Shown here piece after piece: positions 3,886 through 47,117 of a stretch of DNA of 64,000 nucleotides. A program made the translations under genes and the position numbers. The notes under the pieces are model-generated. The model saw nothing but the letters and a program-made list of their open reading frames with translations. It was not told where the DNA came from and searched no databases. The number at the start of each line of letters is the position of its first letter. The first letter of the stretch is position 1. This DNA is from Geosiphon pyriformis uo1 (Eukaryota; Fungi; Glomeromycota), in the NCBI GenBank assembly GCA_016748015.1, contig JAAOMT010000703.1:310001-374000 (forward strand). Reading direction: 5' to 3'.

Positions 3886-6800
3886 TAATTTCTTCTTTAA
3901 AACTAAGCTCTATTAAAGTTTAAGTATTATCTGTAACATTAAGATAATAGTCCAAAATAATTATAGTAGTTTGGTCTGAAAATTATTGAATTTCAATTCT
4001 GTAAGTTTACCAATATATTGAATTTTTATTGGTTGGAATATTGGATTTTATAAAACATTTTCACAAATATTAAATAAGTTATAAAGTCTAAATGCTGTTC
4101 TGAGTTTATAATAAGTATTTGTAAGTTTAGCTATTGTTTTGAATTCATTGTAAATTTGTTTTTGTATAGCTTTAAAAGTAATATTTATTACTACAAGTTC
4201 TAATTTTCATTTATAAAGTGTTCTTTCAATATGAAAATATCTGTATATAAGAGTATATTTATTTTTCTGTTTATTAAAATATTACAGAAGTTTTTGTTAA
4301 ATTGTGATATTTGGTAAAATGTTAATAGAGATGAATAAAAGGTTTTCTTTTAAAGCTTGTTTTAAAAGTTCTGGTAATTAATTTTCAGAATAATTTCTTG
4401 TGTTTCTTCTATAAGAATAATAATTTTGAGTATTATTTATTATTGGTATTATAGTTTTTTTTTGGGTGTAATTAATTTGATTTTCATTAATTATTATGGA
4501 TAAGTCAAAAAATGTTTTTAAAGCTAACATTAATTTCTGGAATATTTGTTAAATATTTTATGGAATAATTATAGTGAAGTAAAATAAAGTTGTAAATGAA
4601 ATTTGAAAAAATTTAAAAAAGAAAATAAATTTCAAAAAAATTTGAAAAGAGAAAAATATGCAAATATTTTTGATATTGGGTTTTTATATTGGGTTTTTTG
4701 TAATTATTTACTATTTTTGTTTTATGTTTATGTATTTTAATGTTAAATTAAATGTTTAAGTTTGGTTGTTGTTTTATTATAACTATTAGTTCTAAGTTTT
4801 AGAAAATATTTTTGGAACTAATTAAAGAGGAATGTGTATTAATTTATGCAATTAATGGTTCAGAATTGTTTCTGGAATAATAATACTTTAATTGATCTCT
4901 ATATACAACTTTTGTTAAGACTTTGTTATTAAGTTTTAACTTATATAATCTATTGTCTAGAATTTTGTAAATATAAAATGGTTTATCTTATTTATGTTCA
5001 AATTTTCTATTCTATTGTTTTTTAGTCTTAGTTTTGTGTAAAAAAACTTTGTTTCTAAATTTAAATTTGTTGGTAATTAGTAGTAATTTATTATTATGTT
5101 ATTCTTTTTGTTGAGCTTGAAAGTATTTAATGTAGATGGCTGTTATTTGTTGTTTCCCTTCTAAAATACTAAAAAGAGTATAGGCTCTTTGTTAAAATGT
5201 TTTTTAAAAGTTTTCTTCATTAATTAATTATATGAAATATGTTTCTACAATAAAATTAATTAGTAATATTGCTGTTTTTCCATAAATTAAATCAAAAAAT
5301 GTGTATTTTATGGTATCTTGTTTTAGTGTTCTGTATGCTAATAATACTGATGAAATAAAAATATCTTATTTCTGCTCAAAATCAGTTGAGACTTTAGCTA
5401 ATGATTCACACAATGTTTGGTTGAAATGTTTCATTAATCTATTTGTTTATAGATAATATGATGATAATAAGAGTCATTTAATATTGAATTGTTTACAAAT
5501 TTTTGTATTAAGTTGTTTATAAAATGTATTTTTTGATTGAATAAAAATTCAATTGAACATTTATGTCTACAAATAATGTCTTCATAAATGAAATTTGTTA
5601 TTGATTTTGCACTTGTTCTTTAAATAGCTCTGACTTTAGACCATTTGGTAAAGTAGTTTACAGCAATTATAATATAATAATTTCTTTGAGTGGTAATAAG
5701 TAGTGGTTTAACTAAATTGATTTCTATTCTGTCAAATAGTTGTTCAACTTTGATTGAATTTAAAAGTTCAATGGATCAAATTTTTTTTTAACAATTATTA
5801 TATGATTTTATATACTGTTGAATGTTTTGGTATATATAAGACCAAAAATAATGTTTTAATGTCTTTTATACTGTTTTTTTCTAAGTGTTCTAATAAAGAA
5901 TCTGTATACATATTATATAAGATTGTTTTTATTTTATTTTATTAGACTAATCTGAATAAATTTGTTAAATTTTGGTGGTTTTTATAATAAATTTTGTTAT
6001 AATACAGAAAGTATTATTTGAATTAGTATTATAATTAGTGTTTTTTAGCTGAAAACCAATTTTCTGGTATTTTGAAAGTTTTTAAATAGTTTTTAATATT
6101 GTTGTAGTTTTTGGAATTTATTGTTTTATTTATTAATTGTTGTTGGATTGGTAATTTGTTTAATTCTAATCTTGTCTTATCTTAAAAAAACTATCTATAT
6201 TTATATATAATTTGTCTAGTTTGTGATAAACAATATATTTGTAGTTTGCTAAAAAATTAAACCATCAAGATTGTTTGGTACTAAGTTCAGAGTTTTTTTT
6301 GTTAAGCTATTTATAACTAATATTATTTATGATGATATCAAATTTTGGTCTATTTTGGAAGTATTGTTGAAAATGTTTCAAAGCCCAAATAATAGTTGCT
6401 GTTTTTAATTCAGTAAACCTATATTTGAGTTTAATTGGTTTAAGAGTTTTACTGGCATAAGTAATTACTTATTTATTGCCATTGTTATTCAATTATGATA
6501 GAATGGCACTAAAAGTTATATGTGAAGCATTGGTGGTTAACTGAAACCTTTTACTAAAATCTGGATAAGCAAAAATTGGAACTGTAATAAGTTTTTTTTT
6601 AAAGATGTTAAATATTTATTGTTAAATTTGTGTCTATTAATATTTCACATCTTTGTTAGTCAAATAGTTGAGTGGTTTAGTAATTTCAAAAAATTTTTTA
6701 ATAAACTTTTAATAATAAGAAATTAATCTTATGAATTCTTTTAATTCTGTAGTATTTTGGGAAACTTAAAAATTTTTAACAATACTAATTGTTCTTGGAT

Positions 6801-6997: not shown

Positions 6998-7867
6998 TGT
7001 TACAGGTGATTATTTCTGCAGTTGAATTAAATAACAAACCTGTAACTTGGTGCTCAAAAGCTATTTCCATTGATGATGTTCTGTAAGTGTTGTATCTGAA
7101 GGTTTTGATGGATCTGAAGGTTTTGGTTGAGTTCTTTGTATAATGGACAGAGATTCAATAGTATCAATAATAGATGTATCTTTCCAAGAGTTTTCCCAAT
7201 TTCTTTCTCAGCATGGTGGCCGGATTTAGTCTGGCAGTTGTGCCCTTCTGGTAAGCTATCTGATAATATATAAAATTCTATTCTTATTTCTGGGTTTTTT
7301 ACCAGGCTATCCTTGACATCAATAACTCAGCACTTAATCCTTTTAATCAGTTAGTATACAACAACAAATCAAAATAAAATAAAGAAAAAGAAATAAAAGA
7401 AAAATAAAAAAAGCAAGAAATAAGCCAAGGCGATTTTGCAGATTAGTATCTTGTCAATAGCCGTGATCAAGAGCTATTGTTCCAGTGTGGTTAAGTATCA
7501 ATTACTATTAACATAAAGTGTTAATAGTGGAGAGTGGGTTGAGATATGGAATAATTATTTATTTGATGATTGTGTTTTCTAGGCTAAGGATTCTGTGGTA
7601 TTGATTCTGTCTTTTCTGTTTCTAATACTACTGCTATATATACATAATTGAGATTCTTCAATTCCTCGATTCTTCACAACAGAAATTCTGGAATTCCTGG
7701 AATCCTGCAATTCCTTTGAGAGGAATTCTGGAATCCTGGAATCCTGTAATTCCTCATCGAGAATCCTGAAATTCCTGAGAGGAATCCTGGAATTCCACAT
7801 TTACTATGCTTACTTCTGATTGGCTAATAATTATGCTAATATATTTTCTATATTTCTATAAGTAACA
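6998..7867 (-). repeat. 3' LTR of A
   Basis: 870 bp, TG...CA ends, direct repeat of 16292-17178. Confidence 0.97.
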
Positions 7868-7881
7868 TTATTCTCTCCTTT
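7868..7881 (-). promoter_or_regulatory. Polypurine tract of A (AAAGGAGAGAATAA)
   Basis: Purine run abutting the 3' LTR. Equivalents at B 25163-25176, C 46445-46457 and G ~37380-37393. Confidence 0.9.
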
Positions 7882-8541
7882 TTAATATTGAGCTCCGTCA
7901 AAATCTAACTCATGTAATTCCTCTTCTTAAAGTATTTTCTGGATTTCGTTTTCGAGAATTACTTGTGTTATTTGGGTTTGTAATTTTTCAAATTGAGCAT
8001 TGGTGATTTTCCTCAGTTGATTACTGGTAACCATATCCATTGCTCTGTTGTGTAATATTTCTGGTTTATCTTGAAATGCTGTATGTATTTGGTATATGGC
8101 TCAGGCTTGTGTAAATAAGTTGTTCTTTCCCACAAAATGTTTTAATTGTTGTAGTATTCTTTTGTCAAATAATTGCTTTGTTTTATTTGTATATAGATTC
8201 TGAATATTTACGTGTTGTCCTAAGTAGATATAACAATAGTTTCGTGAGAATTGTTGTATCCACCAATTCCAAGTTTCTTTAGTCAACTCTTGATATAGTG
8301 ACTCTTTTGTCAATTTTTTTATTACTAATTTTACTTTCACCATAATTTTGTCCACGGTATTTTCAGTTTTCTTCTGTGTTCTGAGTTGAAATGTTTTTCT
8401 AGTATCTTGATATCGAATGGTTTGTTGATTAATTGTAATCTCTATTTCCTGGTGTTGGATTAATTGAAAGAGTTGTTGTGCTAGTGAGTAAATGTTGTCT
8501 GTAATTTCCATTTTTCTGATATTTTCTGTTGCGTCTATCAT
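7882..8541 (-). pseudogene. ORF3 of A: ~219-aa protein of unknown function downstream of integrase (two premature stops)
   Basis: ORF 8101-8541 continues in frame through TGA (CGA in C) to TAA at 7882-7884, adjacent to the PPT. Colinear in B and C. Confidence 0.8.
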
Positions 8542-8565
8542 GTCTTTATATATTCTTTTGATGGA

Positions 8566-9948
8566 TCAATTTAACATGTTGTTGTCGATAATAATGATTG
8601 GTTCTAGATCTCATGGAATCTCATCTGGTTAGACTAGTATTTTCTGTACTCCTAATTGTGGAATATTACTGGTAGATGGTAGTGTGATGTTGTGATATGG
8701 TTTCAGTCAATCTTTATGTACTGCTTTGATTAAAATTTTGTTATCCAATCTTAATTTGTAAGCTCCATTTCCTAGAATTTTTTCTATGTGAAATGGTCCG
8801 TCCCATTTGGGGTCAAATTTTCCACTCCATTGTTTTTCTGCTTTGGTATAATGTAGTAATACTTTGTCTCTGATCTTGAATTCAACTGGTTTGTCTAATA
8901 GTTGACTATTGTGTCTTTCTTTTTGTGTTTCTTGTAACTTTTGGATATTATCAGCTGCTCTTCTTCGTTTGTTTTCCACTGTTTCCATTAAGTCATATGT
9001 TCTTTTTAGCAATGTTTCTTGAAAATTTTCCTCTGTTATTGGTTCAGCTAGATATGTATTAATTTCTCTCTCTACTGGTAATGTTGCTATTCTCCCGTAT
9101 ACTAATTCAAATGGTGTTGCTTGTATAGTATCTTGTTTCATTGTCCAATAAGCAAATAGTACTGATGGTATGAACAAATCCCAATTGTTCTGGTTTTCTT
9201 GGCTGAGCTTGGCTATTGCTTCACATAATGTTCTGTTAAATTTTTCTACTAATCCGTTGGTTTGTGGATGGTATGGTGATGATAATGGTCTCTTGATTCC
9301 AAATCTTTGGCTCAATTCTGTTAATGTTCTGTTCACAAAATGAGTTCCTTGATCTGATAATAATTCTTTTGGACATCCATGTCGACAAATCAAATTCTGA
9401 TGAATGAATTCGGCAATAGATTCTGCATCCGCTCTTTGAATTGCTTTTGCCTCTGGCCATTTAGTGAAATAGTTCATAGCTACTGCTATATATCTGTTTC
9501 CTCTGTTGGTGATTATTAATGGTCCGACTAAATCAATTCCCATATAGTCAAATGATTGTCCCATTTTGATTGGTCTTAATGGTTCACTGGGTCTTGTTCC
9601 TCCTCTTTGCTGACAAGCATCACAATTTTGAACATATTGAATGATGTCTGGGTACATTGATGGCCAATAGTATCTTTTTCTAGTTCTTTCCATGGTTGCT
9701 TCTTTGTGAAAATGTCCTGCTGTTAGATTTGAGTGCATGTTGAATAATATTGTCTTTTTTTCTGGCTCTGTGATTACTCTGGTTGGTTGATCTGGATCTT
9801 TTCTATTTTTCCGATAAAGTATATTTTGGTAAGTAATAAAATATTTTGCTTGTTGTTTGATACTCCTTCGTTTTGTATGAAATAAATTCTCCTTGAACTG
9901 TTGAGTATTTAGATAATGTTGTAATTGTTGATATTTTTGTATGTTCAT
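8566..9948 (-). pseudogene. Integrase of A, separate ORF (HHCC zinc finger, DDE core, GPY/F motif; no chromodomain)
   Basis: H..GH...CDAC, GIDLVGP, SDQGTHF, PQTNGLVE, WDGPF. Starts MNIQKY; decay stops near the C-terminus. Confidence 0.93.
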
Positions 9949-10011
9949 CTTTTGTTGTATTTTTCCGTTGGTATTGTTCTGGTTTTATTATATTTTTGGG
10001 TTGAAATGTTC

Positions 10012-13000
10012 TTAGATTTGTCTTATTCGCGATAAACTATCAGCATTTCCGTTGTCTTTTCCTTTCTTGTAATGTATAGTATAATTGTATGGTGTGAGTG
10101 CCATTTTCCATCTTAACTGTCTTCCATCTCCAAATTCTTGTTTTTGGAGTGATGTCAATCCCTTGTGATCTGTGTATACTTCAAACTTCTGGCTCAAGTA
10201 TTCTTTCCATTTTATGACAGCCCAGTATATTGCTAAGTGTTCTTGTTCCGGTGTTCCATAGTTCTTTTTGGCTGGTGTTAAACCTCTGCTGGCATATGCT
10301 ACTGGATGTTCTCTCCTGTCCAGTCCTCTCTGAGATAATACTGCTCCCAATACTTGGCCGGATGCATCAGTGGTGATAATGAATGGTTTGCTGTAATTTG
10401 GATAGATCAGCACTAAAGCTTAGATGAGCTTTTTCCTCAGAATATCAAAAGCTTCTTGTTGACTTTCTATCCATTCATATTTTGCATTTTTGTTTTGTAG
10501 TTGATTGAGTGGCTGTACTATCTTGGAAAAGTTCTTGATAAAACGACGATAGTAGCTGGCAAATCCCAAGAATGATTTCAGTTCTGTTATATTGGTCGGT
10601 ACTGAAAAGTTCTTTACTATCTCTATTTTCACTGGATCCGTTTTGATGCTGTCTTTGCTGACTATGTGTCTCAAGAATTTGAGTTCCATCTTGCCAAAAA
10701 AGTACTTTGTCACATTTAGCTTTAGTTCTGCTCTTCTTAGTCTTTTGAACACTTATTGAAGATGATGAAGATGATCATCAAATGTCTTTGAGAATACATT
10801 GGTGTCATCTAAGTATACAACTACTGATTTCTACAATAAGCCCATATAAACAATTTCTATTAGCTGTTGGAAAGTCACTGGGGCATTGGTTAAGCCGAAT
10901 GGCATTACTTCAAATTCGAAATTCCCTTCTCTAGTAGTAAATGCTGTTTTCTCTTTGTCAGCTAGATTCATGGCTACTTGCCAGTAACCACTGTCCAAAT
11001 CTAATGTAGAGAACCATTTGTTTCTACCGAAAGCATCGAATAATTCTTGTATTTGTGGAGTTGGATAACTGTCTCCACAAGTTATACTATTGAGTTTCCT
11101 GTAGTCTACACAAAACTAGATTTTTCCATTTTTCTTATGAACAAGTACCACTGGTAACGACCATGGACTCATTGATGGTTGAATTAGCCCATTGTCAAGC
11201 ATTCTGTTTATCTCTTGATGAATAATCTTGTGGCTGGCTGGTGGCACTCTGTATGCTCTTTGTTTGATTGGCATTGCATCTCCAGTTTTAATCTGATGCT
11301 GGATGATATCAGTTCGGCCAAACTCATTTTTGCTGGCAAAGATGTTATTGAAATTGTTGAGTAACATCTTGAGCTGCATACATTGGAGTGGATCTAAGTT
11401 TCCCATGTTCATTTGTTTCAATTGTTCTGGTTGGAGCAAATAATATTCGTCTCATCCATAGATTGTTTGTGATGTGATATCAACATATCCACAAAGTTGT
11501 GGAAAGTCTGGAATGGAATTTGATGGTTGGTCCTCTACTTCTGTGGTTAAATATCTGATGGTGGTTCCTTCTGGTATGCTGATGACATTGCCAGTATTGT
11601 TGTAGATGGAAATTTTTATGCTGCTATAGCTTTTGGCTGGTATGTGGAGATTGATCAACCCAATCTCTCTCAATTCACAAAGAGTTGCTTCCATTTCAAA
11701 CATCTGTTTTTGCTCCTTTTCTTTTCTTTCTATTGCTAACATGTACTGGCTATATGATGGAATAAAAATAGCTTGACCAGTTGAGATAATTTCTCCTTGG
11801 CCAACAATTTCTTCCTCTGCCATGTTAACTGGTACATCTATTCTACCTGTGGATCCGAATCCTTGTATTCCTCTCGCTGTTATTTCTAATTCCTCCCTCT
11901 TTCCCACTAATACTAACTGAGTTATTCTAACCAGAGGCAGGAATATTGCCTGTGCTATTTTTTTATTGGGCTCTATTACATAGGCTTTTTCTGAGTCATT
12001 TTGTAGCATAACGATAATATTTCCTACATATTCCGTGTCAATTATTCCTCCTCTTATATTAATCCCTCTTTTCGCTAAACTACTCTTAGATGCTAGTTGA
12101 ACCATGGTTGTTGCTGGAATTTCTAGTGCTATTTTCAGATCAATGCAGATGCATGAATGTGATTCCAATTTGATGGCATTTTTTCCTGGATATCTCAGAT
12201 TAAACCCTGCATCAGTATCATGTGCATGTTCTGGCATAATACCTTCCCTATTATTACTATACCATTTCAACTTTTGTTCCTTAGAGAGATCTGGTAGTGC
12301 AATGTATTGTTCATAGTTTACATCGGAGTTTGTATCTGAGTTGGAATCATTGTCATTGTCATTGCCTTTTTGAATAGAGCTTGAACCATTGTTGTCATCA
12401 TCATTGTCGGAGTTTGAATCACGATTGATCGGTAATTGTAATTCTGATGTGCAGCTGCTAATTGGTTCTTCCTTTTCTGGGATCGTGTAGATCATGCGTG
12501 GTGGTAGATTGTAAATGAGGTCACACTCATTGCAATACTGGAAGTCATAGGAAATTAGGCAGTATTGACATAGTCGAGCATTCAACTGCTCTAACCATTG
12601 TTCTTGTTCTTTCTTTGTGGGTGCTAATTCTTGATAGTGTTCGTGGAATTGTTCTGGGTCCAGGAGGTTTATGATGGGTTCGGCATCCCAGTCAAGCTCT
12701 AAAGGTTCCGAGGGGTTGTCTTTGATTGTTTTTATCTCTTTTGGCATCGCTTTTTCGATTTTTGCAAGTGCCATTTGCCAAATTTTGTCGTCGTCATGTG
12801 AGCAATTGTCCAGTTGCTGTACTGCTCTTCTCCAGGCTGTTTTTATTGGGGTTCTTTTCCTTACCCAGTCACTTATTAGAATTGTGTATTGACACAATAC
12901 ATCGCACGTTCCTCCATGTCCAGGAATGTCATGCCACATTCCTTCATCCAAGAGAGTCTCTCCACAAGCTAAGCATGGCTGATTGTCCCATTTCTTTACT

Positions 13001-16000
13001 CGTTTTAGTCTTCCAAAGCATTCAAGGATGCATGGGTGGCAATAAAACCTAGTTGCCATTGAATATTCCTCATCGTTCCCACAGCATGCACCCATTGATG
13101 ACAATTTCTTGCCACAATCAATGCATATAAGCTTGGGTTGACAGTAGGTAGATTGTTGGAGTGTAGTGTAGGTGTTATAAGCGGTATTGGTTTGAGTGGT
13201 CTCTTTTTTTTTTCCCTTTCCTTTATTTTTGTTGTCTTCTTCTCATTCCCAACTTGAAGTCAGTTTGCTCTCGTCATTGTCGGTCCATGTCAGATCATCG
13301 GTTTCCCAGGTAAGTTCTTCCTTTTGTTTCCCTTTTTCCTTGTTGTTGTCATCTCAGAAGAGTATTGGCGGCAGCTCGTTGTGCTCTTCATCAGCCCATA
13401 ATACTTGGTAGGCTTCCCAGGTAGGTTTTTTTTTCTCCTCCTCCAGCTTGATCAATAGTTTCTCTCTTGGAGGAGTTTTGAATGGCCACATGTGGCTGGG
13501 ACATGTATGTGTTGGCCCTGATACATTAGCTGGAGTTCCTGGGTGTTCCAGTCTAACGTTGCATTGGCTTTGAATAGCCAGTCATTATCAACAAGAGCTT
13601 GGTATTGAGTGGCTTCTATTACTAGAACTTTAATGGGAGTCATGATGCCATTGACTTCAAACAGGAAATCATCGATTTTACTGATTGGAGTTTTGGTTGC
13701 TCCATCGGCTGTGATGATTCTGGCACTGGCAGCTCGATCAACTCGGTGACCTAATTGATTCATGAGTTGTCTAATGATTATACTGCCAGCTGATCCACTA
13801 TCTAGGATGAGTTTGATGGGGTGACCATCAACTCTGGCATCCGTGTACATGGCTGTTATGGGTTTCTCTTCGAGGGCGGCTCCACTGAATAATGGTATTG
13901 TTGTGTTTTCTTCAAGTTCGAAAGGAAAGATGACTGCTAGGGATTCATTGCTAAAGATGGTTGCCAGTGGAATGGTGTTGGTAGGTACGTGCTAATTGGA
14001 TTCTGTGTTGTTGGAGGTGGTGTTTTCTGAGATAACTAGGAGACTTAAATAATGTTGAGAATTTGGGTTTTGGATGCGACTGGTATCCAAATTCCGGGTG
14101 CGTGATCCTGATGGTGAGTTTAGTGAACTGGGGATTGGTTGGTGAACAACCATCGCTGATCTCTAGTTTTGAGTGACTCTGGATTGAGGGTTGTCTGATG
14201 TCATTTGAGCTGGGTTCTGGGTTGGTGTTTGAATTGGTTGGGGTTGATAGATAATTTGTGGCTGTGGTTGATATATTACTTGTGGCTGTGGCTGATGAAT
14301 TGGAGGTTGATATACTGGCAGGTGATAGATTGGTTGCTGGGTCATGGGCAGGTAATTATTTCGATATTGGTCTTGATTCTGATTTGGATAATGATTTGGA
14401 GTTTGGAACTGGCAATCGGGGTTTCGATATTGATTTTCTGATCATTGGTTATTTAGACGCTGGTGACAGTCAATTTGGATATGTTCTTGTTTCCCACAAT
14501 AGTGGCAGATACGCATTTCCTGTTGCCACTGTTAATTGGTTGATGAAGATAGACATGGTTGATTTTGGCCATGATTAGAGTTTCCTTGATTATTGTGTCA
14601 TTGTGGAGGCTGATAAATGGTGTGATTGTCAGCTAAGTATTCTTCCAATCTCTTATTAATTGATTCACTGAACTTCTCCAATTTGGAATCCAATTCAGAT
14701 GATCCGTTCATAACTAGATTAACGGCTTGGGCATAGTTAGCCTCTGACTCGGTGGACTCAAAATCTCTGGCGCATGTGACTGCGTCTTGAAGCGTGCCAG
14801 AATGCAATAGACATACATGTTACAAGATGCTGCTGCGCAGGCCACAGATAAACTGATTGAGTATCTGTGGTGCTGTGAAATAATTGGCGTCAATTGCTTG
14901 AATTTGGCATAGGTTTCGATGGAAGTGTCCCAGGTAAGTGGTGACTGCTTCAGTTTCTTCTTGTTTTATGGTGGTAAATGCATTAACTAGGCGATTGATG
15001 CTATTATTGTTGCTGAAGTATCTCAGAAATTCTGCTTTGAAGGCATTAAAATCTTGTGGTTTATTAATCAAGCTCTGGTACCATGAATTGGCAGTATCTT
15101 TGAGAAAGTAAGGAATGGTTTGCATTGCTCGTGCGTCATTCTATCTATTGGCTGCGATGGCTTTTTCTACATCATTCAGCCATATTTGAGCGTCATCCTC
15201 TTCGCCAGTAAAGTTGTTGAGTTTTGCGATTGGTGTGTAGGCCATTAGATCTAAGTTAGGTAGTTGTGGTGGCTGTTGAAGCAGTTGTTGTTGTCCTGGC
15301 TGTTGGGATGGTAGCTGAAGTGGCTGTTGTATGAATTCGGCTATAGGATTAATCAGTGGTTGATTGATGATGATTACTGAAAATAAGTTTTGCTAATTGA
15401 TTAATTCGGGTTCTTGATTTCTTTGATTTGGTGGCGTTTGAATATTTGGAGTTTCAATTTCCGGATTTTCTAACTGTTGCTGAGTTTGAAAGTTCGGGGT
15501 TTCAACTTCCGGGTTTTCAGTGATCGGGTGCTGGTAAGTGAATTCTTGATCCTCTGATTCTTCTTCCTCCTTTTCTGATTCTGCTGTTTCCCACAGATCA
15601 GAGATTCAGAAATCTGGTAAAGGCGGTAGTGATCAAAGTCCTAATGGGGTTGATGATCGCGAATTAAATCCCTCAAAGTACTTGCCGTATGGTTCTAACA
15701 ATTCTGTTTTCCTTTGTCTATTTTGGAATGGAAATCGTCCAAATGCTGATGTCGTAGTTGATGTAAACGCGTCTGTTGATGATATGTTGATGGCACTTCC
15801 AGGTGTATAGTGGTAGGATGGGTTGCTTGGAGATTCAACTCTGTTTTTTTTCCAAGCAGATGGCTGTATCTTTCTGGGTGTTACTGCTGGTGTTTGTAAT
15901 TTTCTCTTGCTTTTACTAGTGTATGTAGTTGGATATCTTTGTTGAGTGTGATGTTCAATTTCTTTGTTGATCTCAGTGATAATGGATGCAAAATTATGAT

Positions 16001-16229
16001 TTGTTGGCAGGTTGGTATTTTGAATTAATTCCCTATAGAAAGTTTCTCTTGCTGATTCAGTATTCACTGGTGTTCCTAATAAAGAAGAAATCTTTTCATT
16101 AACATAGAAATTGAAGGCTGATTCGGCAGATATATGATTGTGGTTTAATCTCAAGTATTGACAATAGTGTTGAAATAAGGATTTTGTGAATCCTAAATGG
16201 TTTGCTCCTATAGTTTCTGATTCTGCCAC
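10012..16229 (-). pseudogene. ORF1/polyprotein of A: unknown N-domain, gag capsid, CCHC knuckle, aspartic protease, Cys-rich region, dUTPase, RT, RNase H
   Basis: CHYCGKQEHIQIDC knuckle (~14465-14515), LILDSGS protease, YLDD at 10804-10815, TDASG...YTDH...ADSLSR RNase H. Broken by transition stops and one 1-bp deletion near 13481. Confidence 0.93.
11845..12237 (-). CDS. dut: dUTPase domain within the A polyprotein (between PR and RT)
   Basis: All five motifs: AGF(D/N)L, (R/K)SS, GIID.(G/E)YVG, IAQ, RGIQGFGSTG. Also in B (~29060-29456), C (~50419-50812) and O. Confidence 0.92.
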
Positions 16230-16272
16230 TTTTGGTTTGGTGTTGTCAGTGCTGGTTCTCTGTAGGATTATA

Positions 16273-16289
16273 CCTCACAGGGAGCACCA
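16273..16289 (-). promoter_or_regulatory. Primer binding site TGGTGCTCCCTGTGAGG
   Basis: 2 nt downstream of the 5' LTR; complementary to a tRNA 3' end CCUCACAGGGAGCACCA. Near-identical in B, C, D, E2 and G, identical in F (59642-59658). Confidence 0.92.
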
Positions 16290-16291
16290 AA

Positions 16292-17178
16292 TGTTACAGG
16301 TGATTATTTCTGCGGTTAAATTAAATAACAAACCTGTAACTTGGTGCTCAAAAACTATTTCTGTTGATGATATTCTGTAAGTGTTGTATCTGAAGGTTTT
16401 GATGGGTCTGAAGGTTTTGGTTGAGTTCTTTGTATAATGGACAGAAATTTAATAGTATCAATAATAGATGTATCTTTCCAAGAGTTTTCTCAATTTTTTT
16501 CTCAGTGTAGTGGCCGGATTTAGTCTGGCAGTTGTGCCCTTCTGGTAAGCTATCCGATAATATATAAAATTCTACTCTTATTTCTGGGTCTTTTACCAGG
16601 CTATCCTTGATGTTAATAACTCAGTGCTTAATCCTTTTAATCAGTTAGTATACAACAACAAATCAACATAAAATAAAATAAAAAAAATAAAAGAAAAATA
16701 AAAAAAGCAAGAAATAAGCCAAGACGATTTTGCAGATTAGTATTCTGTCAATAGCCATGATCAAGAGCTATTGTTCTAGCATGGTTAAGTATCAATTACT
16801 ATCAACATGAAGTATTGATAGTGGAGAGTGGATTGAGATATGGAATAATTATTTATTTGATGATTGTGTTTTCTAGGCTAAGGATTCTGTGGTATCAATT
16901 CTGTCTTTTCTGTTTCTAACACTACTGCTATATATACATAATTGAGATTCCTCAATTCCTCGATTCTTCACAACAGGAATCCTGGAATTTCTGGAATCCT
17001 ACGATTCTTTTGAGAGGAATCCTGGAATCCTGAAATCCTGCAATTCCTTGTCAGGAATCCTGAAATTCCTGGAATCCTGCAATTCCTGAGAGGAATCCTG
17101 GAATTCCATATTTACTATGCTTACTTCTGATTGGCTAATAATTATGCTAATATATTTTCTATATTTCTATGAGTAACA
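16292..17178 (-). repeat. 5' LTR of A
   Basis: 887 bp, TG...CA ends, followed by TSD CCAT. Confidence 0.97.
16929..17136 (-). promoter_or_regulatory. LTR U3 promoter: CCAAT box (AGCCAATCAG 17127-17136), 8-9 bp GGAAT(T)CCT tandem array, TATA box (16929-16936)
   Basis: Same order and spacing in the A, B, C, D, G and solo LTRs. Function is inferred. Confidence 0.65.
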
Positions 17179-24172: not shown

Positions 24173-25176
24173 CTGTATATTTGATGTAATTAAGAATAAA
24201 ATTAAAGAAAGAAATAATAAAAAAGACAGTATTATTTAAACTGATTGACATTTTGATCATAATATTTTTAAATAATTCAAAGAATTTAGCAATTTTATTA
24301 AAGACAGCCCATTGTTACAGATGATTATTTGGGGTTTTAAAGCAAATAACAAATCCGTAACTTGGTGCTCAATTGATAGATAGATGTTAATATCTGAAAG
24401 TTTGATTGTTCTGAAGGTTTTGGTGTTGAGTTCTTTGTATAATGGACAGAGATTTAATAGTTGTTTTTAGTAGTCTCTCAGAATCGCAATTCTGTCAAAT
24501 TTTTTTCTCAGCATGGTGACTGGTAATCCTCCTGGTAAGCTATCCTCAAATTTATGAGTGTTTTACCTTTGTTTTATAGGTCTTTTACCAGTCTTTATGA
24601 TGTCTGTAACTCAGTGGTTTAATTCTTAATCAATTAGTTAACCAAAAAAGAAATACAAAAGAAATAAAAAAATTTAAACAAAAGCAATTACAAGTTAGTA
24701 TTCCGTTAATAGCCATAATCAAGAGCTATTGTTTTAGTATAGTTAAGTATCAATTACTATCAACATGAAGTGTTAATAGTGGAGAGTGGATTGAAATAGT
24801 GAATAATTATTTATTAATATTTGTGAAATAGAAGATTGCTTAGATCAGATCTAAACTGGAAGGTTTTTAACTAAAGAATTCTGTCTTTTTTACTTCTAGC
24901 ACTACTACTATATATACATAATTAAGATTTCTTAATTCCTTAATTCTTCACACCAGGAACCCTGGAATTCCTGGAATCCTGCAATTTTTTTTGAGAGAAA
25001 TTCTGGAATTCTGAAATCTTGCAATTCCTTGTATAAGAATCCTAAAATTTCTGGAATCCTGCAATTCCTCTTGAGAAGAATCTTGGAATTCCATATTTAC
25101 TACAACTATTTCTAATTGGCTAATTTATATGCTAATATACTTTTTATATTTTATGAGTAATATTATTCTCTCCTTT

Positions 25177-25845
25177 TTAATATTAAGCTCTGTCAAGATC
25201 TCCCAAATCTTCTAACTCTAATTTTCTGTCTTTGAGTATTTCTTGAACTTTTTTTTCAAGAATTATTTGAGTTATTCTGTTCTGTAATTTTTCAAATTGA
25301 ATGTTGGTTATTTTTCCCATTTGGTTAACTGTAATAGAGTCCATTTTCGGATTTAGTAAGATTTCCAGTTTGTCTTAAAATCCCATATGTAGCTTATAGA
25401 TGGCTCTTGCTTGTGTAGTCAAATTGTTCTTTCCCATAAATTGTTCTAGTTGTTGCAGTATTGTTGTGTCGAATAATCATTTTGTTTTATTCATGTATAA
25501 GTTTTGAATGTTCAAGTGTCATCCCAAGTAGAAGTAACAAAAGTTTCTTGGAAATTTGTGTATCCATCATTTCCAAGTTTCTTTGATCAACTCTTGATAT
25601 ATAATGCCACTTGTTGGTTCTTCTATTGCTAATTTTATTTTCAGAATTATTTTGTTAATAGTGTTTTCTGTTTTTCTTTGACTTTTGTATTTGGGTATCT
25701 TTTTGGTATTCCAGTATCAAATGATTTGTTGATTGATAGTAATTTCTATATTTTGTTGTTGAATTAGTTGGAAGAATTGTTGTGCTAGTGAGTGGATATT
25801 GTCAGTGATTTTTATTTTTCTGAAGTCTTTTGTTATGTCTACCAT
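25177..25845 (-). pseudogene. ORF3 of B
   Basis: MVDITKDFRKIKITDNIHSLAQQ...ETWK*WIHKFPRNFCYFYLG; colinear with A ORF3; stop next to the PPT. Confidence 0.75.
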
Positions 25846-25869
25846 GTCTTTATATACTCTTTTTATTGT

Positions 25870-27199
25870 TCAATTTTATGTGTTTGGTTCAATAATTATA
25901 ATTGGTTCTAGATCTTGTGAAATCTCATCTGGTTGGACTATATGGTGATATGATTTCAGTCAATTACCATATGCTGTTTTGGCTAAGATTTTGTTGTCCT
26001 ATCTTAATTTATAAGCTCTATTTCCAAGAATTTCTTCTATGTAAAATGGTCCATCCCATTTGGAGTCAAATTTTCCACTCCATTGTTTTTTCGCTTTAGT
26101 ACAATGTAAAAATACTTTGTCTCTAATTTTGAATTCAACTGGTTTATCTAATAATTGGTTATTATGTCTTTTTTTTTGTTTCTCTTGTGACTTTTGGATG
26201 TTATCAGCTGCTTTTTGCTGTTTGTTTTTTAATGTCTCCATTAAGTTATATGTTTTTCTTAACAATGTTTTTTGGAAATTCTTTTCTGTTATTGGTTCTG
26301 TTAGATATGTTTTGACTTCTATCTCAACTAGTAATGTTGTTGTTCTATCATATACTAATTTAAATGGTATTGCTTGTGTAGTGGCTTGTTTCATTATTCA
26401 ATATGCAAATAATACTAATAGTATGATTAAATCTCATTTGTTTTGGTTTTTTTGGCTGATTTTGGCTATTGCTTTATACAGTGTTCTGTTGAACCTTTTG
26501 ACTAACTCATTTGTTTGTGGATGGTATAGTGATAATAATGGTCTTTTTATTCCAAATCTTTGGCTTAATTCTGCTAATGTTCTATTCACAAAGTGAGTTT
26601 CTTGATCAGATAATAATTTTTTTGGACATCTGTGTTAACAGATTAGATCTTGATAAATGAATTTGACAACGGATTCTGTATCTGCTCTTTGAATGGCTTT
26701 TGCTTCTGGCCATTTAATAAGATAGTCCATGGCTACTGCAATATATCTGTTGTCTCTACTGGTAATTGTTAATGGTCTGACTAAGTTAATTCCAATGTGA
26801 TCAAATGGTTGTTCCACTTTGATTGGTCTTAATGGTTCACTGGATTTTGTTTCTCTTCTTCTTTGACAAGCATCACAATTTTGAACATATTGGATGATGT
26901 CTGAATATATTAATAGCCAATAGTATCTTTTTTTAGTTCTTTCTATGGTTGCTTTTTTATGGAATGTCCTGCTATTAGATCTGAGTGCATATTGAACAAT
27001 ATTGTCTCTTTCTTTGGTTTGTAATTACTTTTGTTGACTGGTCTGGATTTCTTTTGTATTTCTGGTACAGTATATTTTGATGACTAATAAAATATTTTGA
27101 TTGTTGTTTTATGTTGTTTTGTTCTTTTTGAGATAATTTTTCCTTGAACAATTGGTTATTTATATAATATTGGAGTTGTTGATATTTTTGTATATTCAT
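25870..27199 (-). pseudogene. Integrase of B (separate ORF, decayed)
   Basis: Starts MNIQKYQQL; ORF fragments 26975-27199, 26635-26817 and 25999-26394. Confidence 0.9.
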
Positions 27200-27229
27200 T
27201 TTTTGTTATATTTTTGGGTTGAAATGTTT

Positions 27230-30200
27230 TTAGATTTGTCTTATTCATGACAAACTATTGGCATTTCCATTTTTCTTTCCCTTTTTGTAATGTACTGTAT
27301 AATTAAATGGTGAAAGTTCTATTTTTTATCTGATATGGCAGTTGTCTCCAAATTTCTGCTTTTGGATTGAAGTCAATCTTTTGTAATCAGTGTACACATC
27401 AAACTTTTAACTCAAGTATTTTTTCCACTTGATGACAGCCCAATAGATAGCTAAGTGTTCTAGTGCTGAAGTTTCATAGTTCTTTTTAGCTGGACTTAAG
27501 CTTCTACTGGTATAAGCTACTGAATGCTCTTTTTTATTCAGTCTTCTCTGTGATAGTACTACTCCCAATGCATAACCAAATGCATTGGTTGTTATTATAA
27601 ATGGCTTGTTATAATCTGGATAGATCAGTACTGGAACTTGAATAAGCTTTCTTCTCAATGTATCAAAAGCTTTTTGTTGAGTTTTAGTCCATTTGTATTT
27701 AGTGTTCTTTGTTTAAAGTTGGTGTAATAGTTAAGCTATTTTGAAAAAGTTCTTGATAAAGCAGCAGTAGTATCCAGCAAATTCCAAGAATACTCTCAAT
27801 TCTGTGAGATTATTTGGTACTGAAAAGTTCTTGACAATTTCAATTTTGTCTGGATCTATTTTGATTCCATTTTTGTTTACAACATGTCCCAAAAACTTGA
27901 GTTCAGTTTTTTTAAAGAAACATTTGGTTGTATTTAGCTTTAATCTGGCTCTTCTTAGTCTTTTGAACACTTGTTGAAGATAATGCAGATGATCATCAAA
28001 TGTTTTTAAGAACACATTAGTGTTATTTAAGTATATAACTACTGATTTTCATAGTAGTTCAGTATAAACAATTTTCATAAGTCACTGAAAAGTGGCTGAA
28101 GCATTCATCAAGCCAAATGGCATTACTTCGAATTCAAAGTTTTTTTTTTGAGTTGTGAAAGCTGTTTTCTCTTTGTTTTCTGGTTTCATGGCTATTTGCC
28201 AGTAACCACTGTCTAAGTCTAATGTTAAAAACCATTTCTTTCTTTCAAAAGCATCGAAAAGTTCTTGAATCTTTGGAGTTGGGTAGCTGTCTTCTTTTGT
28301 TACTTTATTCAGTTTCCAGTAATCCACACAAAAGCAAAATTTTCCATTTTTCTTATGAATTAGCACTACTGGTGACAACCATGGACTCATTGATGGTTGA
28401 ATTAACCTATTGTCAAGCATCCAATTGATTTCTTGATGAATAATCTCATAGCTAGCTGGTAGTACTCTGTATGTTTTCTGTTTAATTGGCATTGTATCTC
28501 CAGTTTTGATTTAATGTTAGATGATATTAGTTCTGCCAAATTTGTTTTTGCTAACAAAAATGTCATTGAAATTGTTAAGTAATATTTTGAGCTGCATATG
28601 TTATAATGGATCTAAGTTTCTTATGTTCATTTGTTCCAATTGTTTTAATTGGAGCAAATAACATTCTTTTCATCTGTATATAATTTGAGATATAATATCT
28701 ACATATTTACACAGTTGTGGAAAGTCTGGAATGATATCTGGGAATTGGTTTTCAATTTCTGTGGTCAAGTATCCAATAGTGGTTCTTTCTGGTATTTCAA
28801 TAATGTTTTCTGTATTGTTGTAAATGGGGATTTTGATGTGGCTGTGGTTTTTGGCTGGTATGTATAAATTGACTAATCCAATCTTTTCTGATTTATAAAG
28901 TGTTGCTTCTGCTTCAAAAATCTGTGCCTAATCTTTTACTTTTCTCTTTATAACTACCATGTACTGATCATATGGTGGAATGAAGATTGGTTGATGAGTG
29001 GAGATAATTTCTTCCTTGTCAATAATTTCTTCCTTTGCCATATTGACTGGTACATCTATTCTATCTGTTGATCCAAATCTCTATATCCTTCTTGCTGTAA
29101 TTCCTAATTCTTTTCTGTTTTCCAATGATACTAACTGAGCTATTTTTACCAAAGATAGGAATATTGCTTGTGTTATCTTTTCGTTTGGATCTATAATATA
29201 TGTCTTTTCCAAGTCATTTTGTAGCATAACAATGATATTTCCTACATATCCTGCATCAATTATTCCTCCTCTGATGTTGATTCCCTTTTTGGCTAAGCTA
29301 CTCCTAGATGCTAACTGAACCATTGTTGTTGTTGAGATTTCTAATGCTATTTTGAAATCAATGCATGTATACAAATATGGTTTCAATTTGATGACAACTT
29401 TTTCCAAATATTTCAGATCAAACTCTACATCAGTGTTATGTGCACATTCTGGCATAATACCTTCATTGTTATCACTGAACCATTTCAATTCCTGCTCCTT
29501 GGTGAGGTCAGAGAGTGTGATATATGTTTCTGAGTTTGAATTGGAGTTCAAATCATTATTATTTTCATTGCTATATTGAGCAGAGCTGGAACTGTTGTTT
29601 TCATCATCATCATTGTTGAAGTTTGAATTGGGATTGAAAATTGATTCCAATTCTAATGCACAGCTGTTGATTGGTCCTTTTTCCTCTGAGAATATGTAAA
29701 TCATGCATGATAGTAGATTGTAGATAAGATTACACTTATTACAATACTGAAAGTCACATAAGATTAAACAGTAGTTATATAGTCTTGTATTTATTTCTTC
29801 CAATCATTGTTTTTGTTCCTCTCTAGTGGGTGCTAATTTCTGGTAATGTTCATGGAATTGTTCTAGATCCAGAAGGTTTATGATTGGTTCTGGGTCCCAG
29901 TCCAGTTCTATGGGCTCTAAAGATTTATTGTTAATCGTCTTTATTTTTTCTGATGATGCTCCTTCAATTTTGGCAAGAGTCATTCACCAAATTTTGTCAT
30001 CATCATGTGGACATCCATCCAAGCATTTGACTGCTTGTCTCCAGGCAATGTTTATGGGCATTTCTTTTCTTACCCAGTTACTTATGAGAATTGTATATTA
30101 ACATAATTCATTGTATGTTCTTTCTCTCCCAGGAATGTTATTCTATATTCCTTTGTCAAAGAGAGTTTTTTCACAAGTCAAGCATGGCTCATTATCCCAT

Positions 30201-33200
30201 TTTCTAACTTGTTTTGGTCTTTTAAAGCATTTAATGATGCATAGACAACAATAAAATTTAGTTGCCATTAGGTATTCCTTATTGTTACCACAGCATGCAC
30301 CCATTAATGACAATTTTTTGTCACAATTAATGCATGTAAGTTTTGGTTGGCAATAGGCAGATTGTTGTGGTGTGGTGTGGATATAGCAATTATAAGTGAT
30401 GATAGTGGTTGATATTGGTTCTTCCGTCTCTTTTTTTTTTTCTTTTGTATTTTCCTCCTACTCTTAATTTATTAACTCTTCCTGGTTGGTGTTGGTTCTC
30501 CAGACTTGGTCTGAATTCCAGGTAGGTTCTTCTTTTCTCTTTTCTTTTCCCTTGTTGTCTTATGAAAGTATTAGTGGTAACTCATTGTGGTTTTCATCAG
30601 CTCAAGAGACTTGGTATGCTTCCCAGGTAAGTTTCTATTTTTTTCCTCTAATTTGAGGAGTAGTGTTGATATATTGGCGGTTTTGAAATGACCACATGTG
30701 ACTGGTATACATGTGTGTTGACCATTCTGGCTAAGTTGAAGCTCTTGCATATTCCAGTTTAGTGTTGCATTGGTCTTGGACAGCCAGTTGTTATCAACAA
30801 ACACTTGGTATTGTATTGTTTCTATTACTAGAATTTTGATGGGTACTATGATGCCATTAATTTCAATAGATAAGTCATCTATCTCACCAATTGGAGTTTT
30901 GGTCACTCCATTAGCTGTGATAATTCATGTGCTGGCAGCTCAATCAACTCAGTAATCTAATTGGTCTATAAGTTGTCTTGTGATAATACTGTCAGCTAAT
31001 CCACTGTCTAGGATCAGTTTGATGGGGTAGCCATCAACTTTGACATCTGTGTACATGGCAGTGATAGGTTTTTCTTTAAGAGTGGCTTCACTGAATAATG
31101 GTGTGACTAACAGTTCCTCGAGTTCAAATGGGAAGATGGCATTCAGTGATTCATTTTCAGTGATAGTAGCTGGTAGAATGTTGCTGATAAGAGTTGGTTG
31201 TTGGTTGGTTTTTGGATTATTGGGTTGGACATCTTCTGAGGTAATCAAAAGACTTAAATAGTGTTGGGAATTCAGGTTTTGGGCATGCCCAGTTCCTGAA
31301 TTCTGAGAATGTGATCCTGTTGATTGGTGGGAGGAGCTGGGAATCAGTTGGTAAACAATCATTACTGATCTCCAATTTTGGGTAACTCTTGATCTAGGGT
31401 TTCCTTATGTCATTTGAGCTGGGTTTGATGGTGGTGTTTGAACTGCAGGTGTCTGATAAATTATTTGTGGCTGTGGTGGTTAATATATTACTGGTGGCTG
31501 TAATTAATAAACTGGAGGTTGATATACAGGTGGTTAATATATTGGCTGTTGTATCATTGACAAGTAAGTCAGTTGATATAGTGCTAGGTTAGGTTGGTAA
31601 CTTAGAGTTGGAAACTGGTGATCAGAATTTCAATATTGATTTTCCAATTGTTGGTTATTTATCCTTAACCTATAGTCAATTCTTAAATGATCTTGTTTAC
31701 CACAGTAATAGCAAATACAAATCTCCTGCTGCCACTATTGATTGGTTGAGAATAATAGACGTGACTGATTCTAGAAATGATTTGCATTTCCTTGATTGTT
31801 GTGTTGTTGTAGAGATTGATAGATTGCTTGATTGTTAGCTAAGTATCTTTCTAATTTTTGGTTAATGGAATTACTGAATTGTTTCAACTTAGAATCTAAT
31901 TCAGATAATCTGTTTATCACTAGATTGACAGCTTGGGTGTGGTTAGCTTCAAGTTTAGCTGTTTCAAAATCTCTGGCATTTGTAATGGTGGCTTGAAGAT
32001 CTACAGGATGCATTGAACGTACATGTTGAAGAATGCTACTGTATAATCCACAAATAAACTGGTTTAAAATCTGAGATGCTGTAAAATAGTCAGCTTGAAT
32101 TGCTTGGATTTGGCACAAGTTTTTGTGGAAGCATTCCAAGTAAGTGATAACTGTTTCAGTTTCTCCTTGTTTGATTGTGGTAAAGGTGTTGGCTAGGCAA
32201 TTAATACTGTTATTATTACTGAAATATCCCAAAAATGCAATTTTAAATTCCTGGAATGTTTGAGATTTGGTGACTAAATTTTGATATCATAAGTCAGTAG
32301 TATCTTGTAAAAAATAGGAGATGACTTAGAGTGTTCTTGCATTATTCCATCTATTGGCCATGATGGCCTTTTTGATGTTATTAAGCCATACCTGGGCATT
32401 GCCTTCCTTGTCAGTGAATTTTTCAAGTTTTGCTATTGGAGTGTAGATCATTAGATCCAAGTTTGGTTGCTGAAGTTGTTGTTGTGACTGTTGAAGTGGC
32501 TGTTGTGGTTGTTGGGGTGGTTGAAGTAACTGCTACTGAATTGGTTCAATAATCAGTTCAATTGATGGTTGATCAATAATGATTACTGGAGATAAGTTTT
32601 GCTGATTAATTGTTTTGGGGTTTGTATTGTTCAGATTTTGAGGAGTTTGAAAGTTCAGAGTTTCAATTTCCAGATTTTTTAAGTTTAGATGTTGCTAAAT
32701 TTAAAGGTTCAGAGTTTCAACTTCTGGGTTTTTGGGGATTGGGTTCTGGTAAGTAAATTCTTAATTTTCAGATTCTTCTTTCTCTTCTTTCTGTTCTCCT
32801 TCCAATTTCATTATTTCTCAAAAACTCATGGTTCCGAAATCTGGTTGGGGTGACAAGGATTGAAGTCCTGATGGCATTGGTAATTGTGACTTAAATTCTT
32901 CAAAATACACGCCATATGGTTCTAGAAGGTCTTTTTTTCTTTGTTTACTCTAAAATGGGAATTGTTCAAATGTTGATGTTGTGGTTAATATAGATGCACC
33001 TGTTGATGTGATGTTAATGGTACTTCCAGGTGTATAGTAGTATAATAAGTTTGTTGGTAATTCTATTTTTGTTTTCTTCCACATTAGTAGTTGTATTTCT
33101 TTAGATGTTACTGCTAGTGTTTGTAATCTTCTTTTGCTTTTGTTTGTGTAGATAATAGGGAATTGTTGTTGGGTGTATCTCTCAATGATTTGGTTGATTT

Positions 33201-43230: not shown

Positions 43231-43347
43231 TGTTACTCAATAGAAATTAACAAAAATCAAAAATAATAATATTATAATATATTAATTAATTATTAAATAA
43301 TAGTATAAATAGAACAGATTAACAAATAAAATTAGAAAATATAACAT
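43231..43347 (+). repeat. Element Q: start of a degenerate LTR inserted in P gag, interrupted by D
   Basis: TGTTACTCA begins exactly where P gag homology stops. Confidence 0.55.
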
Positions 43348-46457: not shown

Positions 46458-47117
46458 TTAATATTGAGCTCTTTTGAAATTCAACTTATTTAATTCCCCC
46501 TCTTGAAGTATTTCTTGGATTTCATTTTCAAGAATTACTTGTGTTATTTGGGTCTGTAATTCTTCAAATTGAGCATTGATGATCTTTTCCAATTGATTAC
46601 TGGTAACCATATCCATTGCTTTGCTAAGCAATATTTCTGGTCTATTCTGAAATGCTGTGTGTATTTGGTATATGGCTCGAGCCTGTGTGGATAAGTTGTT
46701 TTTCCCCACAAAATGTTCTAATTGTTGTAGTATTCTTTTGTCGAATAATTGCTTTGTTTTATTTGTATATAGATTCTGGATATTTACATGTTGTCCCAAG
46801 TAAAAATAACAATAGTTTCGTGGAAATTGTTGTATTCACCAATTCCAAGTTTCTTTAGTCAACTCTTGATATAGTGACTCTTTTGTCAACTCTTTTATTG
46901 CTAATTTTACTTTTGCAATGATTTTGTCCACAGTATTTTCAGTTTTCTTCTGTGTTCTGAGTTGCAATGTCTTTTTAGTATCTTGATATCGAATAGTTTG
47001 TTGATTGATTGTAATCTCCATTTCCTGGTATTGGATTAATTGAAAAAGTTGTTGTGCTAGTGAGTGAATGTTGTCTGTAATTTACATTTTTCTGATATTT
47101 CCTATTGCGTCTACCAT
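46458..47117 (-). pseudogene. ORF3 of C
   Basis: ORF fragments 46836-47021 and 46458-46799 lie in one frame and end ...RAQY* at the PPT. Confidence 0.8.

What the first reader, a model, noticed from the sequence alone, without database searches (positions are those of the whole stretch)
7882..8568. Conserved orphan ORF3 (~220 aa) between integrase and PPT, possibly joined to IN by read-through
Seen: A, B (25177-25845) and C (46458-47117) keep a colinear ORF (ETWxWW..F.RN.CY.YLG; ARAIY..H..F...PEIL) whose stop touches the PPT. No signal peptide, transmembrane segment or chromodomain is visible. In all three it is exactly 24 nt and in frame after the IN TGA. Those 8 codons vary synonymously or conservatively (TCC/TCT/ACA, ATC/ATT/ATA, ATA/GTA), as coding sequence does. 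Established: some LTR lineages (Sireviruses) express a 3' ORF by stop suppression. Inference: either a stand-alone accessory protein or a novel IN C-terminal domain.
Basis: partly seen in the sequence, partly recalled or inferred. Interest (0 to 1): 0.75.

Follow-up and report, generated by a model that had tools for sequence, protein, structure and literature searches.

The report
Stand-alone third gene in fungal retrotransposons
Jumping genes, most likely of the fungus Geosiphon, carry right after integrase a third, selection-maintained gene that matches no catalogued protein family; relatives separate the two genes by up to 316 non-coding bases, so the protein is likely made on its own and not by read-through, and its job is untested.

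Summary
The ORF is real. Three decayed Ty3/gypsy copies keep a colinear 219-222-codon frame between integrase (IN) and the PPT, under purifying selection in that frame only (0-fold/4-fold transversion ratio 0.20-0.23, p 0.003 and 0.0008). The closest proteins are all Geosiphon pyriformis gene models.

Read-through is not supported. Copies B and C have a second in-frame TAA two codons before the TGA. Across genomic contigs the only listed variant at the TGA is another stop. A diverged element in the window (D) and a near-intact metagenome element (L001) carry the same ORF in another frame, after about 175-215 and 316 nt of G-poor non-coding spacer.

The protein has no transmembrane stretch and no Pfam family, and is predicted to be mostly helical. 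Unexpected extra: in 6 of 6 elements examined IN is itself cut off from RNase H by a stop and a short G-poor spacer, so these elements look tricistronic. How the downstream ORFs are translated, and what ORF3 does, remain untested.

The parts
7882..8541 (-). ORF3 of element A (ATG 8541; second Met at 8511 matches the start of distant homologs; 2 internal stops)
8542..8565 (-). 24-nt spacer between IN stop and first ORF3 ATG; holds a TATA-like A/T run
8566..8568 (-). IN stop codon TGA (TAA in about a third of contig depth)
8572..8574 (-). Codon two before the IN stop: TTA in A, TAA (second stop) in B and C
7868..7881 (-). Polypurine tract, directly after the ORF3 stop and before the 3' LTR
8566..9948 (-). 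Integrase ORF of A with its own ATG (H2C2 zinc finger, rve core, SH3_Tf2-1; no chromodomain)
9949..10014 (-). Stop after RNase H (10014-10012) and 63-nt G-poor spacer before the IN ATG
6998..17178 (-). Element A, full length: LTRs 16292-17178 and 6998-7867, 4-bp target duplication, gag-PR-dUTPase-RT-RH, IN, ORF3
25177..25845 (-). ORF3 of element B (24313-34377); 6 internal stops
46458..47117 (-). ORF3 of element C (45596-55682); 2 internal stops
3890..4566 (-). Decayed, distant ORF3 homolog of a fourth element (D), in another frame than its IN
4573..4750 (-). Element D: TAA at the position matching the IN stop (4750-4748) and a G-poor (2% G) spacer

Best explanation
ORF3 is a selection-maintained third gene of a Ty3/gypsy retrotransposon lineage that is likely translated from its own ATG as a separate, soluble protein of about 210-220 residues, predicted to be mostly helical and likely a non-enzymatic binding factor that serves the element. 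Shown: the frame, its selection, its fixed place between IN and the PPT in five elements, the true stop before it, and the same stop-spacer-ATG layout between RNase H and IN. Inferred: that it is a separate product (about 0.85). Inferred and weaker: the route. I favour re-initiation or internal initiation on the full-length RNA across the G-poor spacers, the same route that IN would need (about 0.5), over a spliced or internally started sub-genomic RNA (about 0.4). Inferred and weakest: nucleic-acid or partner binding rather than catalysis (about 0.35), from a basic middle, an acidic tail and conserved residues that hold no acid, His or Cys.
For: Selection: transversions at 0-fold vs 4-fold sites 22/391 vs 6/24 (A-B, p 0.003) and 21/390 vs 7/26 (C-B, p 0.0008); shifted frames and LTR frames give ratios of 1.4-3.4 where defined; Nei-Gojobori omega 0.18-0.23. 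True stop: of 138 variant places in 4234 contigs laid on 8330-8760, the 40 shown include 8567 C>T (TAA; 32% of depth, 51 contigs) but no change that makes the codon sense, while decayed sense codons nearby do show theirs: 8613 43%, 8631 86%, 8709 28%. Two loose-end groups (18 and 14 contigs) read TAA at this codon, one of them with the second TAA as well. Second stop in B and C. L001: IN ends in TAA at 2137-2139, then 316 nt with 4% G and stops in all three frames, then an intact 230-aa ORF3 in another frame with a TAA directly before its ATG; its pol is 52% identical to A's. D: same ORF (frameshift-aware score 86 vs shuffle maximum 42 and natural-control maximum 37; 60% identical to the N-part of P0189, which an independent profile scores 65.5 bits). 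Of 83 database proteins with the N-terminal motif 31 start at M1, 44 at M11 and 8 elsewhere; none of 5 gene models that hold the IN tail runs on into the ORF3 start. Stop after RNase H in 6 of 6 elements (A, B, C, D, E, L001), spacers 63, 30, 62 and 24 nt with 0-8% G and no ATG where measured. Model pLDDT 77.7, core mostly above 85; 12 columns conserved in at least 8 of 9 representatives are P, Y, Y, K, N, R, F, L, L, N, G, I.
Against: No expression data were obtained, so translation is not shown. The table is cut (98 of 138 places hidden, ranking rule not stated), so a minority sense codon up to roughly 13-19% of depth is not excluded; double hits CGA to TAA do occur (B at 9384). The A-C comparison has no transversion signal (3/407 vs 0/47). 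A and C share much of their history, so A-B and C-B are not independent tests. Gene models are predictions on decayed copies. Re-initiation after long ORFs is described for stop-start distances under about 20-30 nt (PMC10275272 section 13), which fits 24 nt but not 54, 175 or 316 nt; the L001 spacer holds two ATGs. One model (P0075) starts at a Met in the second spacer codon, so in some subfamily the spacer may be coding. L001 is not fully intact (one further stop inside IN), and D is heavily decayed, so its frame could have shifted by mutation.
Confidence: 0.8

Rival explanations
1. ORF3 is a separate protein, but is made from its own sub-genomic RNA (internal promoter or splicing), as for env-type ORF3s. 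This differs from the best explanation only in the route.
For: PMC5408684 (passages) states that ORF3s typically are separate transcription units expressed from spliced messages. Long A/T spacers in D and L001. A TATA-like run lies about 35 nt before the second Met in A, B and C, the Met at which distant homologs start.
Against: No AG in the last 30 nt before the L001 ORF3 ATG, nor before the IN ATG of B or L001. The 24-nt spacer leaves little room, so signals would have to overlap IN coding sequence. TATA-like runs are common in DNA of about 30% GC.
Confidence: 0.4
2. ORF3 is joined to IN by programmed read-through of the TGA, as in SIRE1.
For: In A, B and C the ORF is in frame, the spacer is 24 nt without a stop and its changes are conservative (about 4% of LTR windows do the same).
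Against: Second TAA in B and C; TGA/TAA alternation; the bases after the stop differ among copies (TCC, ACA, TCT) and lack the CAR-YYA context recalled for SIRE1-type read-through; D and L001 are out of frame behind long spacers with stops.
Confidence: 0.06
3. ORF3 is the C-terminal domain of IN, and the stop is a mutation (CpG decay of CGA or TGG) shared by these dead copies.
For: CpG is depleted (o/e 0.07-0.39), LTR pairs differ almost only by transitions, and one other codon is TGA in all three copies through such decay. The 32% at 8567 is also what a CpG site gives.
Against: A CpG origin needs a matching high A>G at 8568, and a TGG origin a high T>C at 8566; neither is among the 40 best-supported places, while the partner changes of four other CpG-type sites are. 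D has TAA at the matching position; L001 ends IN with TAA and holds ORF3 apart.
Confidence: 0.05
4. The stretch is non-coding 3' spacer, conserved for replication signals beside the PPT.
For: The last 25 or so bases are conserved as DNA while being read in different frames in A and L001, so the extreme C-terminus is a cis signal.
Against: Frame-specific selection, no frame-breaking indel among A, B and C over about 660 nt, protein-level similarity at 18-42% identity across families, an intact ORF in L001.
Confidence: 0.02

Closest known systems
Additional ORF3s of bdelloid rotifer LTR retrotransposons (Juno, Vesta, TelKA; PMC5408684, passages read)
   Same: Gypsy-type elements, several with dUTPase, carrying a separate ORF between pol and the 3' LTR; some of 210-230 aa.
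   Different: Those ORF3s are env-like, TM, GDSL esterase or DEDDy nuclease; this one has no TM stretch, no Pfam match to them and no conserved acidic residues. IN is part of pol in the passages seen.
Fungal Gypsy elements with dUTPase or an 'additional ORF with unknown function' (PMC2864245 figure legend and passages; PMC6431247 passages)
   Same: Fungal Ty3/gypsy, dUTPase between PR and RT, precedent for an extra ORF.
   Different: Most of those are chromoviruses; the passages give one or two ORFs and no separate IN. Whether their additional ORF is related could not be checked (supplement tables not held as text).
SIRE1 / Sirevirus ENV-like ORF (PMC2829016, section 20 read)
   Same: 3' ORF after pol, close to the pol stop.
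   Different: Copia, not gypsy; SIRE1 has only a stop codon between the ORFs; here there are 24-316 nt, sometimes two stops and another frame.
Termination-reinitiation systems: SART1, hypovirus CHV1, caulimovirus transactivated re-initiation (PMC10275272, passages and section 13)
   Same: Several ORFs in series on one retroelement or viral RNA, separated by stop and start codons.
   Different: No stop-start overlap here and spacers up to 316 nt; no sequence likeness to any known re-initiation factor was found; the mechanism is untested.

Membership tests
Ty3/gypsy LTR retrotransposon (Metaviridae) | Paired LTRs with TG...CA ends, target duplication and PPT | tested here: met
   LTR pairs of about 850-870 nt, 4-bp duplications, PPT
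Ty3/gypsy LTR retrotransposon (Metaviridae) | Domain order gag-PR-RT-RH-IN | tested here: met
   Pfam Ty3_capsid, Asp_protease_2, dUTPase, RVT_1, RT_RNaseH, Integrase_H2C2, rve in that order
Ty3/gypsy LTR retrotransposon (Metaviridae) | IN is part of one Pol polyprotein (typical, recalled) | tested here: not met
   Stop after RNase H in 6 of 6 elements; IN has its own ATG
Ty3/gypsy LTR retrotransposon (Metaviridae) | Placement in a named clade by RT phylogeny | not tested
   No reference RT set was at hand
Chromovirus | Chromodomain at the IN C-terminus | tested here: not met
   Only SH3_Tf2-1 after the IN core, at E up to 1 for the window and 0.01 for L001
Env-like ORF3 (errantivirus, Athila, Sirevirus) | Transmembrane segment | tested here: not met
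   Largest 19-residue hydropathy 0.27-1.29 in 9 representatives
Env-like ORF3 (errantivirus, Athila, Sirevirus) | Signal peptide | tested here: inconclusive
   Hydropathy only, no predictor run; no hydrophobic N-terminus in full-length members
SIRE1-type stop-codon suppression | ORFs in frame and separated by a single stop in all active relatives | tested here: not met
   Two stops in B and C; other frame and 316-nt spacer in L001
SIRE1-type stop-codon suppression | Measured read-through | not testable with these tools
   Needs a reporter assay
Enzymatic ORF3s (GDSL, DEDDy) | Family profile match and invariant catalytic residues | tested here: not met
   Not among the Pfam families shown for 43 members (25 of 63 listed); no conserved D, E, H or S column
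ParB/Spo0J/KorB helix-turn-helix domain | Fold or profile similarity | tested here: inconclusive
   VIA Z 3.3-4.2, in the noise; hhalign probability 0.1%, no better than shuffled profiles

The most novel reading that the evidence does not exclude
This is an undescribed tricistronic Ty3/gypsy lineage (gag-PR-dUTPase-RT-RH, IN, ORF3) in which integrase is not cut from a polyprotein but restarted on the genomic RNA, and ORF3 is the element's own trans-acting factor that makes this restart possible, a functional counterpart of the caulimovirus transactivator in a fungal retrotransposon, with a protein family not yet catalogued.
Probability: 0.12. Interest if true: 0.88.

Novelty: new variant of a known kind. 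Interest (0 to 1): 0.52.

Why it matters
Extra 3' ORFs of LTR retrotransposons are known, but this protein family has no Pfam or PHROGs home and spans at least seven diverged groups (18-42% identity). LTR sequences cover 41.2% of the G. pyriformis genome (PMC11952901, passage), so a factor kept by these elements may bear on that expansion. The split integrase breaks the usual Pol polyprotein plan and raises a testable question: how IN reaches the particle and how downstream ORFs are translated. An intact natural ORF3 (L001) is on hand for direct tests. It does not offer a new case of read-through.

Tried and rejected
No whole genome is held, so the genome-wide codon count was replaced by laying contigs. 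The second laying was insensitive: it listed 3 places and missed the known 8567 change, so it is not used. No RNA holder was listed; runs X2 and X3 laid nothing. First fold on the shallow alignment failed (pLDDT 37.9). With the better model: no Foldseek match at E 0.001 or below in PDB or BFVD; VIA best Z 4.5, none at 5 or more among 48,161 chains; this does not show a new fold, and the N-terminal 65 residues were barely tested. PDB sequence search: only importin-5 at E 0.8. Pfam and PHROGs on 43 members: scattered weak hits in at most 5 members. ParB/KorB idea from weak VIA rows: hhalign against 52 ParB and 56 KorB sequences scored 11.7 and 11.2, within block-shuffled controls; dropped. Atlas: no usable hit for P0004; for P0179 a lead only, a 98-member hypothetical cluster commonest in Mucoromycota at 0.94 with recognition below threshold, and a closterovirus coat row at 0.93. 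Viral contigs: 0 of 58. A splice donor/acceptor pair seen in D's spacer was not pursued: ORF3-like sequence lies inside the supposed intron. The middle of my frameshift-aware alignment of D used a frame that P0189 later showed to be wrong; the homology stands. The 8 longer hits are Geosiphon gene models; none aligns across the IN-ORF3 junction.

Full report
Setting. The window holds three full-length LTR elements on the minus strand, A (6998-17178), B (24313-34377) and C (45596-55682), with paired LTRs and 4-bp target duplications. Pfam gives gag (Ty3_capsid), protease, dUTPase, RT, RNase H and integrase in Ty3/gypsy order, with an SH3_Tf2-1 domain and no chromodomain after the IN core. All 109 near-length and all 8 longer homologs of ORF3 are Geosiphon pyriformis gene models (109 of 360 and 8 of 956 candidates), so the window is most likely from that fungus. 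The copies are dead: CpG o/e is 0.07-0.39 and LTR pairs differ by 55, 120 and 72 transitions against 2, 5 and 0 transversions. That decay turns CGA, CAA and TGG into stops, so every stop had to be tested. CG methylation of TEs is reported for the related Rhizophagus irregularis (10.1101/2021.03.30.436303, passages).

The observation. It is coding. Using transversions, which deamination does not make, 0-fold sites changed at 22/391 against 6/24 for 4-fold sites (A-B, p 0.003) and 21/390 against 7/26 (C-B, p 0.0008). The two shifted frames and the three LTR frames show no such deficit; IN core gives 0.10-0.12. A-C alone is uninformative, and the two informative pairs share B. Amino-acid identity is 62-64% to B and 86% between A and C.

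Is the TGA a true stop? Sharing by three copies is no proof, since codon 8707-8709 inside IN is TGA in all three and is sense in other copies. Laying 4234 contigs of run X1 on 8330-8760 gave 138 variant places, 40 shown. Decayed sense codons show their sense allele at 28% (8709), 43% (8613) and 86% (8631) of depth. At the IN end the only listed change is 8567 C>T, 32%, which gives TAA; neither change that would give CGA/CAA or TGG is listed. The lowest rows shown are about 12,500 in depth and 19% in share, so a hidden sense allele is probably below that, but the ranking rule is not stated. Two loose-end groups of 18 and 14 contigs also read TAA there. Run X1 may be the sample behind the assembly, and contig depth is no copy number. 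One search was insensitive and is not used. B and C have a further TAA two codons upstream.

Relatives settle the layout. A profile search of 1.84 billion representatives returned 92 hits; of 10 distant ones looked up, 8 are Geosiphon models and 2 (P0167, P0179) unnamed metagenome proteins. Two repetitive hits (P0181, P0183) were ignored. A second profile search gave 51 of 3243 candidates, 50 of them Geosiphon. The contig of P0179 (L001) is a near-intact relative, pol 52% identical to A: IN stops at 2137-2139, 316 nt with 4% G and stops in all frames follow, and an intact 230-aa ORF3 starts in another frame, with a TAA directly before its ATG, and runs through the PPT into the LTR. In the window, a fourth, heavily decayed element D (IN 41% identical) has TAA at the matching IN-end position, a 2%-G spacer and the same ORF in another frame; its exact start is not resolved, so the spacer is about 175-215 nt. 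Distant homologs begin at the Met that matches A's second Met (8511); of 83 database proteins with the N-terminal motif 44 start there, 31 at the first Met and 8 elsewhere, and none of 5 models holding the IN tail continues into the ORF3 start. The spacer's coding-like pattern is met by about 4% of LTR windows and 7% of true ORF3 windows; one model (P0075) starts at a Met in the spacer, so it may be a short N-terminal extension of ORF3 in some subfamily.

A second split. Right after the RNase H end motif there is a stop in A, B, C, D, L001 and a further element E (6 of 6 examined). IN then starts at its own ATG after 63, 30, 62 and 24 nt in A, B, C and L001, with 0-8% G and no ATG in between; C, D and E are out of frame and A and B have further stops in the spacer. 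I saw this before looking up earlier notes; AI notes on other genomes report a like layout, which is a lead and not support, and I could not test whether their ORF3s belong to this family (sequence look-ups empty).

The protein. Soluble by hydropathy, net charge +10 to +12 over residues 46-160 and -1 to -6 in the tail for the three copies. AlphaFold2 on 43 sequences gives pLDDT 77.7 and pTM 0.65 for P0179: a low-confidence N-terminal helix and hairpin, then a helical core at about 80-200. Twelve columns are kept in at least 8 of 9 representatives (P, Y, Y, K, N, R, F, L, L, N, G, I), with no acid, His or Cys, which argues against a metal-dependent enzyme (inference). Family and fold searches are listed under Tried and rejected. 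The extreme C-terminal motif is a DNA signal beside the PPT, read in different frames in A and L001.

How it most likely works. Shown: a selected ORF, a true stop, variable non-coding spacers, the same layout before IN. Inferred: ORF3 is a separate product. Route: re-initiation or internal initiation on the genomic RNA is slightly favoured because IN needs a route too and no splice acceptor is kept before these ATGs; against it, coupled re-initiation after long ORFs is described within about 20-30 nt (PMC10275272, section 13), and ORF3s are said typically to come from spliced messages (PMC5408684, passage). Function: a binding factor for the element's RNA, DNA or proteins is my best guess, at low odds.

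Comparison and novelty. Extra ORFs between pol and the 3' LTR are a known kind (PMC5408684, PMC6431247 and PMC2864245, passages; PMC2829016, passages and section 20), and dUTPase between PR and RT is known in fungi (PMC2864245, PMC6431247). Nine full-text searches showed no paper on this ORF or on a separate IN ORF in such elements; most hits were seen as listings only, the library lacks most subscription papers including the Geosiphon genome paper, and the DOC tables of PMC2864245, which list fungal elements with an additional ORF, were not searchable (1 file held, no occurrence). Verdict: a new variant of a known kind. The ORF is real and uncatalogued, the read-through idea fails, and the split integrase is the more surprising feature.

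Noticed in passing
window 9949-10014 (A), 27200-27232 (B), 48525-48589 (C), about 6168 (D), about 63810-63910 (E, + strand); L001:772-798: Stop codon right after the RNase H end motif in 6 of 6 elements, then a G-poor spacer and an ATG that starts integrase: IN looks like a separate ORF.
   Followed up: partly
window about 12400-13242 (- strand): Between protease and dUTPase, pol has a Cys-rich stretch of about 280 codons with several CxxC pairs and no Pfam match.
   Followed up: no
window about 11840-12240 (- strand) and the matching part of C: dUTPase domain between protease and RT.
   Followed up: yes
window 7868-7895 and L001:3090-3118: About 25 bases before and in the PPT are conserved as DNA across A, B, C, D and L001 while read in different frames; they include a short palindrome.
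   Followed up: partly
window 12784-14269: A and C fall to 70-75% identity here against about 90% elsewhere, suggesting recombination between subfamilies.
   Followed up: no
window 13300-13560: All three copies change frame just after protease, but at different single-base indels in A and B, so a programmed frameshift is not shown.
   Followed up: partly
window 16272-16290 (- strand): Primer-binding-site-like sequence after the 5' LTR, kept in A, B and C; it recalls a tRNA-Ile 3' end (from memory, not tested).
   Followed up: no
window 35253-38346, 43328-45595, 55738-58955: Several solo or partial LTRs and gag fragments of related families, many on the + strand, some directly beside C.
   Followed up: no
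P0179: Nearest Atlas cluster is a 98-member hypothetical protein group commonest in Mucoromycota; it may point to a wider family in these fungi. Lead only.
   Followed up: no
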